From the NCBI RefSeq assembly GCF_017348835.2, contig NZ_CP071375.1: 64,000 bases of DNA; one strand, given 5' to 3'. Positions 3,001-6,000 of the stretch are shown here, piece by piece. Source of the stretch: Escherichia coli (GTDB taxonomy: Bacteria; Pseudomonadota; Gammaproteobacteria; Enterobacterales; Enterobacteriaceae). Position 1 is the first letter of the stretch. Each line of letters opens with the position of its first letter. A program made the position numbers.

Positions 3001-6000
3001 CTAAACAGCACACTATCGAGTTTTGCGCTTCGTTGTGTAATTTCATCAATATGCTGCTGCAAGTTATGCAGAGCGCGTTTAATGACATCGGCCTGATATT
3101 CAAGGAAATAAGTCAGATCCATACCGTCTGATTCAGTGTACTGGTAGCTGGCAGCATATTTGACTGGCGCAGCATGAAGCAAACGGCTGATGGAAATATA
3201 TTTAAAGACATCGTAGCCCGATTTCAGCATATACCAGTAAAACAGCGCCCGACTGGTGCGCCCGTTGCCATCGCGAAATGGATGTTCATGGGCCAGCATA
3301 AAATGCAGAATGCAGGCACGGATTAACGGGTGAATATACCCTTCATGGCTGTTTAACCACTGGCAAACTTTTTCCAGTCGTTCCGGTAACAATGCCGCAG
3401 CGGGCGGTTGGTGCACAATATTGCCGTCATAATCGGCGATCACGACATCATCTGTTTCACGAAATTCACCTGGACGATATTTCGCGTCATTTATTCCCCC
3501 CATGCCAATGGCATGTAACTGGCGAATAAGCGCAGGTGTCAGCGGTTCTGCGAGTAAGTGCGGAATTTCCGCCATCAGCCGGGCATTTCCCGCAATCATA
3601 TGCTCGTCTTCAGTGCGTGGCGACCGTCCTGTTTCCAGCATTTTTCTCGCCACCAGCGTTGTAGTATTCGCACCTTCCAGCTGGGAGCTGGTGATCGGCT
3701 CTTCCAGGCGTAACTGGCTTAACTCGGCTCCGGCCCCGCGTAACCGTTCAGTCTGATCTTTCAGCGCCAGCGCGGTAGCACGTTTGTCGACAAGCTCGCA
3801 CGCTTCTGCAATCACCGGGGTAATGTTGAATCCGGCCTGTTCACCCGCTTCATTGCAATAATTAATTCGTTGGATCGCCGCGTTGCGCGCCAGACGGGTA
3901 AGCGTCCACGCCACATCGACGTTTTCTCCTTTTTTGATGCGGTACTGCAACTCATCAAAAGGCAGATAACGTCCTTTTTCATCGGTAACCCGGTTAAAGC
4001 GCAGGTGGGCCAGGAGTTCCTCACCCGATAAGTGTGATAAAGGAATAAGTCCGGGAGGTGATTTGATAGCCATGTGCTTATCTCAAAAAAGCGCAATATT
4101 GAGATAGTGTATAGCAGGAAAGAGAAACTATCTCAAAAAAAGCAAGTTTTGAGATAGTTGAAAAAGCGGCTGACAATTTGCCAGCCGTTGTTGGAATGAT
4201 GATTACATTGCGGCGCGATAAATCGCCACAATTTCTTCGTGAGTTGCCTGGATCGGGTTAGTAAAGCCACAGGCATCTTTCAGGGCATTAGCCGCCAGAA
4301 CCGCGAAATCTTCTTCTTTCACGTTCAGATCGCGTAGGCCTGCCGGGATATCCACTTTCTTCGCCAGTTCACGGATGGCGTTAATGCAGGCTTCAGCACC
4401 TTCCGCGTCGTTTTTACCAGTCACATTCACGCCCATTGCAGCGGCACAGTCACGCAGACGTGCAGCGGCGACTTTGCTGTTGAATACCTGAACATGCGGC
4501 AGCAGAACGGCGTTACATACACCGTGTGGCAGGTTATAGAAACCGCCCAGCTGGTGCGCCATCGCATGAACATAACCCAGAGAAGCATTATTGAACGCCA
4601 TACCGGCGAGGAACTGGGCATAAGCCATTGCTTCACGCGCTTTCGCATTACTGCCATCTTCAACGGCTAATGGCAGGTTTTCGGCAATCATGGTCACGGC
4701 TTTCAGTGCGCAAGCGTCAGTGATCGGCGTAGCGGCAATAGAAACATACGCTTCGATAGCGTGCGTTAAGGCATCCATACCCGTTGCGGCGGTCAGTGAC
4801 TTCGGCATACCAATCATCAGAGAGGAGTCATTGACAGAAAGCAGCGGAGTGACATGTTTATCAACAATCGCCATTTTGATATGACGCGCTTCGTCAGTGA
4901 TGATGCAGAAACGGGTCATTTCAGAGGCCGTACCCGCCGTGGTATTGATGGCGATCATCGGCAGCTGCGGTTTTGCAGAGCGGTCAACGCCTTCGTAATC
5001 GCGAATATCGCCGCCATTGGCTGCCACCAGCGCAATACCTTTTGCGCAGTCGTGCGGAGAACCACCGCCTAAGGAGATCACGCTATCGCAATTATTTTCT
5101 TTAAGTAATTTCAAACCTGCGGCGACGTTTTCCGTGGTGGGGTTAGGTTGGGTGCCATCATAAATAATGCTAAAAATATTGCGTTCTTCCAGTGCTTTTT
5201 GCACATCGCCCGCCATACCTAATTTCGTTAACATACTGTCAGTGACAATCAATGTACGGCGAAACCCATATTCTGCCATCATATTCATTGCATCAGCCAA
5301 TGAATCAGCGCCGATGACATTCACAGAAGGAATAAAAAAGGTTGAAGCTGCCATAACACACTCCTGAAAGTGTAAAAAAGGGCGGGCAGCTTACTGAGGA
5401 TTTTCATTCGAAAATATGATCAGTATTATTGTTTAGCAAAATTAATCTAATAAAAAGCACATTGCATTCATTAAACAATGTGCTTTTTTTAAATCATAAG
5501 AATTTTGTATTAATTTATTTTAAAACTTAATTAATCATTTCATTATTTTTCCGGAAATAATAATGCGTCGCGCAATAAATGATCATTTCCACGACGACGC
5601 GTAAAGCCAATGCGGTCAAAATATTCCAGGATTTGAATCGCCAGTTTTCGCCCAACCCCTAAGCGATCGCGGAAATCCGCCGCGCAGGTTGAACCACATT
5701 CCTGATCGAGATCGCGGATCATATTGGCAAATTCGACAATCCGATCGTTACGGTAATAACGATCTTTGACGATCGCGGTAATTATTCCCTGTTGGGCCGC
5801 CTGACGTAGCGTCAGGCGCATTGCCTGCTCGTCGGTGCCCGTCTCTTTTGCCAGATCACGCACCCACCACGGCTCGTCACCAAACAGCGGCTCTGCTTTC
5901 TGCCAGATGGCCTGCTGCTCTTCGCTGAAGCCCGCTTTGTGATCCGGCAGATGCAGCCAACCGTGATGACTGAGGATGTCGCCGCTTTCGCGCATCTTTT

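What the first reader, a model, noticed from the sequence alone, without database searches (positions are those of the whole stretch)
4079..4156. Twin palindromic operator-like sites in front of the Fic gene
Two copies of the same palindrome (tatctcaa..ttgagata, arms up to 10 bp) sit 5 and 55 nt upstream of the Fic start codon, their left arms 50 bp apart. That is the layout expected for binding by a dimeric repressor, and the Fic protein itself has a C-terminal HTH-like region that could autoregulate. The pattern is too regular to dismiss as chance.
Basis: seen in the sequence. Interest (0 to 1): 0.5.

Follow-up and report, generated by a model that had tools for sequence, protein, structure and literature searches.

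The report
Self-repression operators of a Fic toxin gene
The two palindromes in front of this E. coli Fic gene are almost certainly the sites where the Fic protein's own DNA-binding tail sits to shut off its own promoter. This arrangement is already known from two related Fic enzymes, and here it is traced across many bacterial phyla.

Summary
TATCTCAA-N12-TTGAGATA occurs at 4079-4106 and 4129-4156, where no matches are expected by chance. The sites lie 5 and 55 nt upstream of the ATG of a 431-aa class II Fic gene (2778-4073, minus strand).

- About 90 homologues from many phyla sit in unrelated gene neighbourhoods. Of 87 loci, 72 carry a wide-spaced palindrome within 150 nt upstream, against 16-19% of control windows, and the palindrome is often present twice.
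- In gammaproteobacteria only the four half-sites and the -10 are invariant. The distal site supplies the -35 hexamer (TTGAGA), and the proximal site covers the expected transcription start and the ribosome-binding site.
- The half-site sequence changes together with the first two residues of the recognition helix of the Fic protein's own C-terminal winged helix. Examples are TACTAA with YQ, TACCAA with YD, TGCTAA with xQ, and TCTCAA with D/Y-N.

The palindromes are not REP-like repeats and match no Rfam family.

The mechanism already has experimental precedent in distant relatives. CccR represses its own promoter at a footprinted operator, and SoFic binds its own promoter. This is therefore a new member of a known kind, of moderate interest. 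Binding and repression were not tested experimentally here.

The parts
2778..4073 (-). Fic gene, 431 aa. [quoted passage not shown]
   Evidence: ORF. Pfam Fic PF02661, E 1.4e-19. PADLOC SoFic profile, E 9.5e-44 over residues 96-427. Annotated as 'Fic family protein' in RefSeq E. coli.
4079..4108 (.). Proximal operator O1. In gene orientation it reads ACTATCTCAA-tattgcgctttt-TTGAGATA, with core hexamers TCTCAA (4104-4099) and TTGAGA (4086-4081). It is predicted to cover the transcription start and the 5' UTR, and its right half-site doubles as the Shine-Dalgarno-like GAGA.
   Evidence: A site is found in the upstream 200 nt of most gammaproteobacterial and enterobacterial homologues, usually 23-34 nt before the ATG, and half of these proximal sites are perfect matches. 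The half-site columns are invariant in alignment A3.
4126..4159 (.). Distal operator O2, AACTATCTCAAAA-N8-TTTTGAGATAGTT, with perfect 13-nt arms. Its promoter-proximal half-site is the -35 hexamer.
   Evidence: I3. A second site lies 49-51 bp upstream of O1 in E. albertii, Salmonella, Pantoea, Pseudescherichia, Ningiella, Marinomonas, Parashewanella and two Pseudomonas.
4131..4136 (-). Predicted -35 hexamer TTGAGA, which is the right half-site of O2.
   Evidence: Orthologues that lack O2 carry TTGACA, TTGACT, TTGACG or TTGCCA at about the same position relative to O1. This is an inference; no transcription start data exist.
4106..4113 (-). Predicted -10 region. It reads either TATACA (4113-4108, 17-nt spacer) or TACACT (4111-4106, 19-nt spacer) and abuts the left arm of O1.
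   Evidence: Orthologues carry TATACT, CATACT, TAAACT, TAAAAT or TATnnT at the same position. The TA of this element is invariant in A3. The consensus scan did not call a minus-strand promoter here, so the promoter is weak or atypical.
2793..2975 (-). [quoted passage not shown]
   Evidence: AlphaFold2 secondary structure, translation, and Foldseek alignments of 355-362 columns to CbFic2, SoFic and CccR.
2847..2885 (-). Recognition helix DNTARTDLRTIVK, residues 397-409. D397 and N398 are the positions that covary with operator bases.
3249..3284 (-). Fic active-site motif HPFRDGNGRTSR, residues 264-275.
3672..3689 (-). Auto-inhibitory helix motif SSQLEG, which fits (S/T)xxxE(G/N), residues 129-134. 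It lies N-terminal to the Fic motif, which makes this a class II Fic protein.
   Evidence: The motif is invariant in alignments A1 and A2.
4161..4187 (-). Intrinsic terminator of the upstream gene yiaY: stem CGGCTGGCA/TGTCAGCCG followed by CTTTTTC. It separates yiaY from the Fic promoter.
   Evidence: I4.

Best explanation
The two palindromes are operators O1 and O2 of a negatively autoregulated promoter. [quoted passage not shown]

One Fic dimer is inferred to bind each palindrome. The half-site hexamers are 18 bp apart centre to centre, which suits a dimer that holds its two DNA-binding domains far apart.

O2 contains the -35 hexamer (TTGAGA). O1 begins 1-3 nt after the -10 hexamer, so it covers the expected transcription start, the short 5' UTR and the ribosome-binding site. 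Bound protein would therefore exclude RNA polymerase, or block its escape, and keep the potentially toxic enzyme at a low, self-limiting level.

Shown here:
- the sequence features themselves;
- their conservation;
- their position relative to promoter-like elements;
- the covariation between protein residues and operator bases.

Inferred, not shown:
- actual binding;
- stoichiometry;
- the sign of regulation;
- the transcription start.
For: 1. The sites are non-random and unique in the window.

2. The gene is a single-gene unit that sits in unrelated neighbourhoods: aldB/yiaY in Escherichia, an ICE in Salmonella, beside AbiEi in Pantoea, beside ParE and HicAB in Photorhabdus, and among metabolic genes in Rahnella, Kosakonia and Pseudescherichia. 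All but the most divergent orthologue (Salmonella serovar Nigeria) keep a recognisable O1, usually 30-34 nt before the ATG.

3. Across 87 homologue loci from many phyla, 72 have at least one perfect palindrome with 6-nt arms and a 10-13 nt spacer within 150 nt upstream. The figure is 19% for random windows and 16% for shuffles. In 25 of 86 loci the same palindrome occurs twice. Perfect TCTCAA-N12-TTGAGA occurs 0 times in 538 kb of background and 26 times upstream of the gammaproteobacterial homologues. Palindromes of the form TnCnAA-N10-13-TTnGnA occur 53 times in 17.6 kb of upstream sequence against 3 times in 522 kb of background.

4. In an alignment of nine gammaproteobacterial promoters there are 26 invariant columns. 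At least 22 lie in or directly beside the four half-sites and two are the TA of the -10. The spacers are not conserved.

5. Where O2 is absent, a canonical -35 (TTGACA, TTGACT or TTGACG) sits where O2's right half-site would be.

6. The half-site class tracks residues 397 and 398 of the recognition helix: TACTAA with YQ (19 of 19), TACCAA with YD (4 of 4), TATCAA and TATTAA with YA or YG (4 of 4), TGCTAA with [TRLPM]Q (7 of 7), TCCTAA with NQ (3 of 4), and TCTCAA with [DY]N (14 of 14). Mutual information exceeded all 2000 permutations for five of the six residue-base pairs and all but 8 for the sixth. Proteins of different operator classes are as similar overall (mean 47-49% identity) as proteins of the same class (47-54%), so the pattern is not simply deep clade structure.

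7. The covarying residues are the first two of helix 397-409, the third helix of the predicted winged helix.

8. There is experimental precedent in distant structural relatives (Foldseek). CccR footprints on an inverted repeat at its own -35/-10 and represses about 3.3-fold (PMC9755527). Dimeric SoFic binds the 100 bp before its own start codon, and that fragment holds three of five copies of the 8-mer ATGTCGAT.
Against: - No experiment was done on this protein or this DNA.
- The consensus promoter scan found no minus-strand sigma-70 promoter. The proposed -10 is weak (TATACA or TACACT) and the transcription start is unknown, so read-through from yiaY cannot be excluded as a contributor.
- The permutation test for covariation does not correct for shared ancestry.
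- Fifteen of the 87 loci have no perfect palindrome of this geometry within 150 nt upstream. One out-of-sample group, the Vibrio plasmids, shows no clear palindrome.
- The dimer geometry could not be modelled, because only a monomer prediction was available and no coordinates are returned.
- CccR's operator geometry (10-N26-10) differs, so the analogy is one of mechanism and not of detail.
Confidence: 0.78

Rival explanations
1. The palindromes act mainly as RNA hairpins. O2 would be a back-up terminator or insulator after yiaY. O1 would be a 5'-UTR hairpin that sequesters the ribosome-binding site or stabilises the mRNA.
For: Both fold well as RNA. O2 gives -14.1 kcal/mol (z -6.65). O1 gives -9 kcal/mol for the 51-nt stretch that contains it (z -1.85). 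The terminator scan flags O2, with 13 pairs followed by a T-rich tail. In enterobacteria the right arm of O1 (GAGA/GAGG) lies at Shine-Dalgarno distance from the ATG.
Against: The arm sequences are conserved rather than compensated. TCTCAA/TTGAGA is invariant from E. coli to Marinomonas and Pseudomonas, where the proteins are about 40% identical, while the loops vary. Both copies in a locus use the same half-site. O2 lies upstream of the predicted -10. The O2 stem has only 3 G-C pairs. The arms covary with the protein's recognition helix, which an RNA role does not predict. There is no Rfam match. A secondary translational effect of the O1 hairpin remains possible.
Confidence: 0.07
2. The palindromes are binding sites for a different regulator encoded elsewhere in the host, not for Fic itself.
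For: Binding by Fic is not shown here. Many E. coli regulators recognise AT-rich palindromes.
Against: The sites accompany the gene through unrelated neighbourhoods, plasmids and phyla that share no common neighbouring regulator. The half-sites also covary with Fic's own helix.
Confidence: 0.05
3. The palindromes are REP-like repeats, or recombination or terminal repeats of a mobile cassette. The reasons to consider this are that the gene is patchily distributed and that one deletion end-point lies inside O2.
For: The gene is present in only 1572 of 5426 complete E. coli genomes. The Fic-less allele breaks inside O2. Homologues occur in ICE, toxin-antitoxin and plasmid contexts.
Against: Both copies lie on the same side of the gene. 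There is no half-site 3' of it and no recombinase is linked in Escherichia.

In the metagenome scan, 40 of the 80 loci examined have the motif directly upstream of a Fic homologue. The other 40 reduce to one abundant coding sequence seen 24 times plus about 10 different unrelated sites, roughly what chance might give in a collection of that size, though its size was not checked. There are no further copies in 538 kb of background.
Confidence: 0.03
4. The palindromes are a chance occurrence in an AT-rich intergenic region.
For: None beyond the AT-richness of the spacer.
Against: No match in 100 shuffles. The sites are conserved across genera and phyla.
Confidence: 0.01

Closest known systems
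CccR of Yersinia pseudotuberculosis (YPK_0951; most likely PDB 7xux, matched by its length of 380 aa and release date, not confirmed)
   Same: It is a class II Fic AMP-transferase with a C-terminal HTH. As a dimer it binds an inverted repeat overlapping the -35/-10 of its own promoter and represses it. This was shown by DNase I footprinting, EMSA and lacZ fusions (PMC9755527). It is among the best structural matches to the model.
   Different: Only about 18-19% identical in the Foldseek alignment, and 380 aa long, so it lacks the ~95-aa N-terminal extension. Its operator is a single 10-N26-10 repeat (AGATAATCAT-N26-ATGATAATCT) rather than two 6-N12-6 palindromes. CccR is also a T6SS-secreted effector that targets FtsZ, and nothing here suggests secretion.
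SoFic of Shewanella oneidensis (SO_4266; PDB 3eqx, 3zcn)
   Same: It is a class II Fic protein with a C-terminal winged helix. The dimer, but not the monomer, binds specifically to the 100 bp upstream of its own start codon. The PADLOC SoFic profile matches the window protein at E 9.5e-44. My reading of the published fragment finds the 8-mer ATGTCGAT five times, the nearest copy 28 nt before the start codon.
   Different: The window protein does not belong to the NCBIfam SoFic equivalog (40 bits against a cut-off of 550). Identity in the structural alignment is about 17%. The SoFic binding site has not been mapped, and its repeated word and spacing differ. SoFic AMPylates EF-Tu, whereas the target of the E. 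coli protein is unknown.
CbFic2 of Coxiella burnetii (PDB 8cil)
   Same: It is the best structural match (Foldseek E 7.6e-12). It is a class II Fic protein with a C-terminal HTH that binds DNA. DNA binding induces dimerisation and switches the enzyme from AMPylase to deAMPylase (PMC10628234).
   Different: The DNA binding reported for CbFic2 is largely non-specific, and the protein is proposed to act on host histone H3. No operator or autoregulation has been described.
Type II toxin-antitoxin autoregulation (for example Phd/Doc) and AbiEi-type single-operon repressors
   Same: A toxic enzyme is held at a low level by repression at palindromic operators that overlap its own promoter. Doc also has the Fido fold.
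   Different: Here the repressor domain and the toxin domain are in one polypeptide, and no separate antitoxin gene is present. There is no ORF between the Fic stop codon and aldB. This differs from EcSofic, which has the small downstream protein AS1 (PMC12249575).

Membership tests
Class II Fic AMP-transferases (Engel/Goepfert classification) | Fic active-site motif HxFx(D/E)GNGRxxR | tested here: met
   HPFRDGNGRTSR at residues 264-275. Pfam PF02661, E 1.4e-19.
Class II Fic AMP-transferases (Engel/Goepfert classification) | Inhibitory helix motif (S/T)xxxE(G/N) in the same chain, N-terminal to the Fic motif | tested here: met
   SSQLEG at residues 129-134. S129, Q131, L132, E133 and G134 are invariant in 55 homologues.
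Class II Fic AMP-transferases (Engel/Goepfert classification) | AMP-transferase (or deAMPylase) activity | not testable with these tools
   Requires biochemistry.
Fic proteins with a C-terminal wHTH that bind their own promoter (CccR, SoFic) | [quoted passage not shown] | tested here: met
   AlphaFold2 model, pLDDT 89: long helix 321-359, then helices 367-378, 386-393 and 397-409, then two strands. Foldseek aligns 355-362 columns to 8cil, 3zcn, 3eqx and 7xux. Weak Pfam HTH_DeoR and HTH_5 hits.
Fic proteins with a C-terminal wHTH that bind their own promoter (CccR, SoFic) | Inverted-repeat DNA overlapping the core promoter of the protein's own gene | tested here: met
   O2 supplies the -35 and O1 begins 1-3 nt after the -10 hexamer. 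Both are conserved in orthologues. The promoter elements are predicted, not mapped.
Fic proteins with a C-terminal wHTH that bind their own promoter (CccR, SoFic) | Specific binding of the protein to that DNA, and repression | not testable with these tools
   Only indirect support is available: covariation between recognition-helix residues and half-site bases.
Fic proteins with a C-terminal wHTH that bind their own promoter (CccR, SoFic) | Homodimer formed through N-terminal helices | not testable with these tools
   Only a monomer model could be made. The palindromic sites imply at least a dimer.
SoFic proper (NCBIfam NF046030 equivalog) and the SoFic anti-phage defence system (PADLOC) | Score above the curated equivalog cut-off | tested here: not met
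   40.3 bits against a cut-off of 550. The protein is a distant relative, not an equivalog.
SoFic proper (NCBIfam NF046030 equivalog) and the SoFic anti-phage defence system (PADLOC) | Match to the PADLOC SoFic profile | tested here: met
   E 9.5e-44, residues 96-427 against profile positions 30-351 of 361. Anti-phage activity itself cannot be tested here.
REP/BIME-type repeated extragenic palindromes | Many copies at unrelated intergenic loci | tested here: not met
   Only these two sites in the 64-kb window. No perfect core sites in 538 kb of other loci. The metagenome hits are either Fic-linked or at about the level chance might give. A complete E. coli genome could not be scanned.
Intrinsic (rho-independent) terminator | G+C-rich stem followed by a U-tract at the end of a transcription unit | tested here: inconclusive
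   O2 passes the loose scan but has only 3 G-C pairs in 13. A proper terminator for yiaY lies just upstream at 4167-4187. O2 is also conserved in genomes where the upstream gene is different or faces the other way, for example Pseudescherichia.

The most novel reading that the evidence does not exclude
The operator may be more than a transcriptional switch. By analogy with CbFic2, DNA binding might hold the Fic enzyme in a dimeric state that is off for AMPylation and on for deAMPylation. The operator DNA would then act as the antitoxin of a one-protein toxin-antitoxin or defence module. Loss of operator occupancy, for example during phage infection, would both de-repress the gene and unleash the enzyme.

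Separately, the two-residue code linking the recognition helix to the half-site (YQ with TACTAA, YD with TACCAA, xQ with TGCTAA, D/Y-N with TCTCAA) would provide a natural set of orthogonal, re-programmable repressor-operator pairs.
Probability: 0.15. Interest if true: 0.75.

Novelty: new member of a known kind. Interest (0 to 1): 0.4.

Why it matters
Fic-wHTH proteins are widespread. One subgroup, SoFic, is listed as a single-gene anti-phage defence system, yet how cells tolerate these toxic AMPylases is only partly understood.

This locus gives a precise and testable operator and promoter map for a Fic family that is present in about 29% of complete E. coli genomes, including O157:H7 and ST131 strains. 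It also shows that autoregulatory palindromes are a family-wide feature across phyla, not a peculiarity of CccR.

The covariation between residues and bases predicts which two residues set DNA specificity, and a two-residue swap would test that directly. The concept itself, self-repression by a Fic-HTH protein, is already published, so the advance is one of breadth and detail and not of principle.

Tried and rejected
- **Known RNA families.** An Rfam scan of 3950-4300 at E up to 1 gave no match.

- **REP-like or mobile repeat.** A metagenome scan for CTATCTCAA-N12-TTGAGATAG returned 108 stretches, of which 80 were examined. Forty lie directly upstream of a Fic homologue. The other 40 have no Fic motif or homologue in the locus. 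Of those, 24 are one and the same coding sequence from a low-GC gut organism, and the rest reduce to about 10 different sites. The hypothesis was rejected.

- **First family-wide template.** My first template (TnCnAA) missed the gammaproteobacterial class, because TCTCAA has T at position 3. This was corrected with a separate TCTCAA-N12-TTGAGA search.

- **AS1-like small antitoxin downstream, as in EcSofic.** Only 107 nt separate the Fic stop codon from the aldB start, and there is no plausible ORF.

- **Phage or plasmid carriage.** Only 19 plasmid records and 3 weak phage records were found, so this is not a typical phage gene.

- **Out-of-sample check on three plasmid homologues.** Klebsiella fits, with ACTCAA-N12-TTGAGT at -32. 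Aeromonas fits partly, with the promoter and an O1-like site but a long leader. Vibrio shows no clear palindrome.

- **Not possible with these tools.** A dimer model and the distance between the two HTH domains could not be obtained, because the tool predicts monomers and returns no coordinates.
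Full report
**Locus.** The window is Escherichia chromosome. On the minus strand the gene order is yiaY (4203-5354), a 431-aa Fic gene (2778-4073) and aldB, whose annotated start is near 2670. The 129-nt gap between yiaY and Fic holds a good intrinsic terminator for yiaY (4167-4187) followed by the two palindromes.

**Check of the observation.** TATCTCAA-N12-TTGAGATA occurs at 4079-4106 and 4129-4156 and nowhere else in 64 kb. None of 100 shuffles produced a match. The distal copy has perfect 13-nt arms (4126-4138 and 4147-4159).

**The protein.**
- It carries the Fic motif HPFRDGNGRTSR at residues 264-275.
- The inhibitory motif SSQLEG at residues 129-134 lies N-terminal to the Fic motif, which makes it a class II Fic protein.
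- Pfam finds the Fic domain, plus weak HTH hits at residues 376-413.
- The PADLOC SoFic profile matches at E 9.5e-44, but the protein fails the NCBIfam SoFic equivalog cut-off.
- An AlphaFold2 model (pLDDT 89) ends in a winged helix. Its third helix, the usual recognition helix, spans residues 397-409 and reads DNTARTDLRTIVK.
- The best structural matches in the PDB are CbFic2, SoFic, Dde_2494 and an entry that is probably CccR. All are Fic proteins, at 16-21% identity, and the three that have been characterised (CbFic2, SoFic, CccR) carry a C-terminal HTH.

**Distribution.** The gene is present in 1572 of 5426 complete E. coli genomes. Fic-less genomes show the junction gggttaca|gagatagtt. 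They lack 2783-4150 but keep the Fic stop codon and the outer 9 nt of the distal palindrome. E. albertii has the gene next to aldB as well. The Fic-less state is therefore a deletion scar and not an empty insertion site.

**Comparative test 1: does the palindrome travel with the gene?**
- Full-length homologues are abundant. I fetched 80 loci from one-genome-per-species contigs and 10 loci for 9 enterobacterial orthologues.
- The neighbourhoods are unrelated to one another: ICE genes, AbiEi, ParE with HicAB, and metabolic genes. No other gene is consistently linked.
- Even so, 72 of 87 loci have a perfect palindrome with 6-nt arms and a 10-13 nt spacer within 150 nt upstream. The figures for controls are 19% of random windows and 16% of shuffled upstream sequences. 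In 25 of 86 loci the same palindrome occurs twice.
- For the gammaproteobacterial class, perfect TCTCAA-N12-TTGAGA occurs 26 times upstream of homologues and never in 538 kb of background. The twin copies are 49-51 bp apart and the proximal copy starts 23-34 nt before the ATG.
- In other phyla the palindrome has the form TnCnAA-N10-12-TTnGnA, for example TACTAA, TGCTAA, TCCTAA or TACCAA. It occurs 53 times in 17.6 kb of upstream sequence against 3 times in 522 kb of background.

**Comparative test 2: what exactly is conserved?**
- In nine gammaproteobacterial promoters there are 26 invariant columns. At least 22 lie in or directly beside the four half-sites and two are a TA dinucleotide in a -10-like element. 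The spacers inside and between the palindromes vary freely.
- When the sequences are anchored on the proximal site, a -10-like hexamer ends 1-3 nt before it. Examples are TATACT, CATACT, TAAACT, TAAAAT and TATnnT. In E. coli the hexamer is TATACA or TACACT.
- The -35 position is filled by the right half-site of the distal palindrome (TTGAGA). In orthologues that lack the distal palindrome it is filled by a canonical TTGACA, TTGACT or TTGACG.
- So O2 overlaps the -35, and O1 covers the expected transcription start and the whole short leader, including the Shine-Dalgarno-like GAGA. This is a standard repression layout. It also explains the fixed ~50-bp offset in gammaproteobacteria as a consequence of promoter geometry.
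- The promoter elements are inferred. The generic scan did not call a promoter on this strand.

**Comparative test 3: who reads the half-sites?**
- Sorting the homologues by half-site shows that residues 397 and 398, the first two of the recognition helix, change with the bases.

| Half-site | Residues 397-398 | Loci |
|---|---|---|
| TACTAA | YQ | 19 of 19 |
| TACCAA | YD | 4 of 4 |
| TATCAA, TATTAA | YA or YG | 4 of 4 |
| TGCTAA | T, R, L, P or M, then Q | 7 of 7 |
| TCCTAA | NQ | 3 of 4 |
| TCTCAA | D or Y, then N | 14 of 14 |

- Mutual information between these residues and bases 2-4 of the half-site exceeded all 2000 permutations for five of the six residue-base pairs and all but 8 for the sixth.
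- Proteins of different operator classes are as similar overall as proteins within a class (mean 47-49% against 47-54%). The association is therefore not just deep ancestry, although no formal phylogenetic correction was made.
- This is the strongest argument that the Fic protein itself binds the palindromes.
- Three plasmid-borne homologues served as an out-of-sample check. Klebsiella fits, Aeromonas fits partly, and Vibrio shows no clear palindrome.

**Rival explanations.**
- RNA hairpins: the sequences would fold well as RNA. However, the arms are conserved rather than compensated, both copies share one half-site, O2 lies upstream of the -10, and no Rfam family matches. A minor translational role for the O1 hairpin remains possible.
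- REP-like or mobile-element repeats: the metagenome scan rejects this. Half of the 80 loci examined lie directly upstream of Fic homologues. The other half are one repeated coding sequence plus about 10 different sites, roughly what chance might give.
- A foreign regulator: this does not fit with the changing genomic contexts or with the covariation.

**Comparison with what is known.**
- CccR of Y. pseudotuberculosis is a class II Fic-HTH protein. As a dimer it footprints on AGATAATCAT-N26-ATGATAATCT at its own -35/-10 and represses about 3.3-fold (PMC9755527).
- Dimeric SoFic binds the 100 bp before its own start codon. The site is not mapped (bioRxiv 10.64898/2026.07.09.737422). In the published fragment sequence I find the 8-mer ATGTCGAT five times. 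Three copies lie in the best-binding fragment and the nearest is 28 nt before the start codon.
- CbFic2 binds DNA largely non-specifically, and DNA-induced dimerisation switches it from AMPylase to deAMPylase (PMC10628234).
- EcSofic from E. coli H397 is a different, shorter protein with a small downstream antitoxin, AS1 (PMC12249575). No such ORF exists here.
- The principle is therefore published. What is new is this family, which has a ~95-aa N-terminal extension, its 6-N12-6 twin-operator design built into the promoter, its spread across phyla, and the two-residue specificity pattern.

**Verdict.** Confidence is about 0.78 that these are Fic's own operators mediating negative autoregulation. 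This is a new member of a known kind, of moderate interest (0.4). The most novel reading not excluded is that operator DNA also controls the enzyme's activity, acting as an antitoxin in a one-protein module, and that the recognition code can be re-programmed. I put the probability of that reading at about 0.15.

Noticed in passing
window 2783-4150, compared with L001 2480-2520: Fic-less E. coli genomes (more than 3000 of the 5426) share one junction, gggttaca|gagatagtt. It keeps the Fic stop codon plus 2 nt and the outer 9 nt of the distal palindrome. This is a 1368-bp deletion scar, not an empty insertion site. E. albertii carries Fic next to aldB too, so the gene was ancestral at this locus.
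   Followed up: partly
window 4161-4187 (minus strand): A clean intrinsic terminator for yiaY (9-bp stem with 6 G-C pairs, then CTTTTTC) lies immediately before the distal palindrome. It insulates the Fic promoter from yiaY transcription.
   Followed up: no
L094, L106, L112, L119 and about 20 further metagenome loci: The 30-nt motif also occurs at the very start of a 632-aa ORF (ATGGCTATCTCAAAATTGCAGCTCGTTGAGATAGAATTC) in an abundant low-GC human-gut organism. This is a coding-sequence coincidence that inflates the count of hits not linked to Fic.
   Followed up: partly
L122 2933-2968 and L154 105-140: An orphan, AT-rich perfect palindrome with 13-nt arms (AAACTATCTCAAT...ATTGAGATAGTTT) sits in a GC-rich contig (58-61% GC) with no Fic gene or Fic motif in the stored locus. 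It could be a relic operator or a site for a related regulator.
   Followed up: no
L083, L085, L086, L091 (flanks of the Fic orthologues): The orthologues sit beside mobile-element or defence genes: AcaB, DUF3158 and DUF3577 (ICE) in Salmonella; AbiEi in Pantoea; ParE and HicAB toxin-antitoxin pairs in Photorhabdus; resolvase, ParA and primase in Salmonella serovar Nigeria. This fits a defence or toxin-island lifestyle.
   Followed up: no
L090 4706-5716 (minus strand): The Xenorhabdus locus carries a second, different Fic-HTH gene (336 aa, with Fic plus HTH_11/MarR-type hits) about 800 nt downstream of the orthologue, convergently oriented.
   Followed up: no
S. oneidensis SoFic upstream fragment F3 (published sequence read): The distal 100 bp of the published SoFic upstream fragment holds a separate set of four TCTATACA/TGTATAGA repeats that form two large palindromes. 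These are distinct from the ATGTCGAT repeats near the start codon and may belong to the neighbouring gene.
   Followed up: no
window 1132-2760 (minus strand): The mechanical ORF for aldB starts at a GTG and gives 542 aa, whereas RefSeq annotates 512 aa starting at MTNNPP. About 107 nt therefore separate the Fic stop codon from the aldB start, presumably holding the aldB promoter.
   Followed up: no
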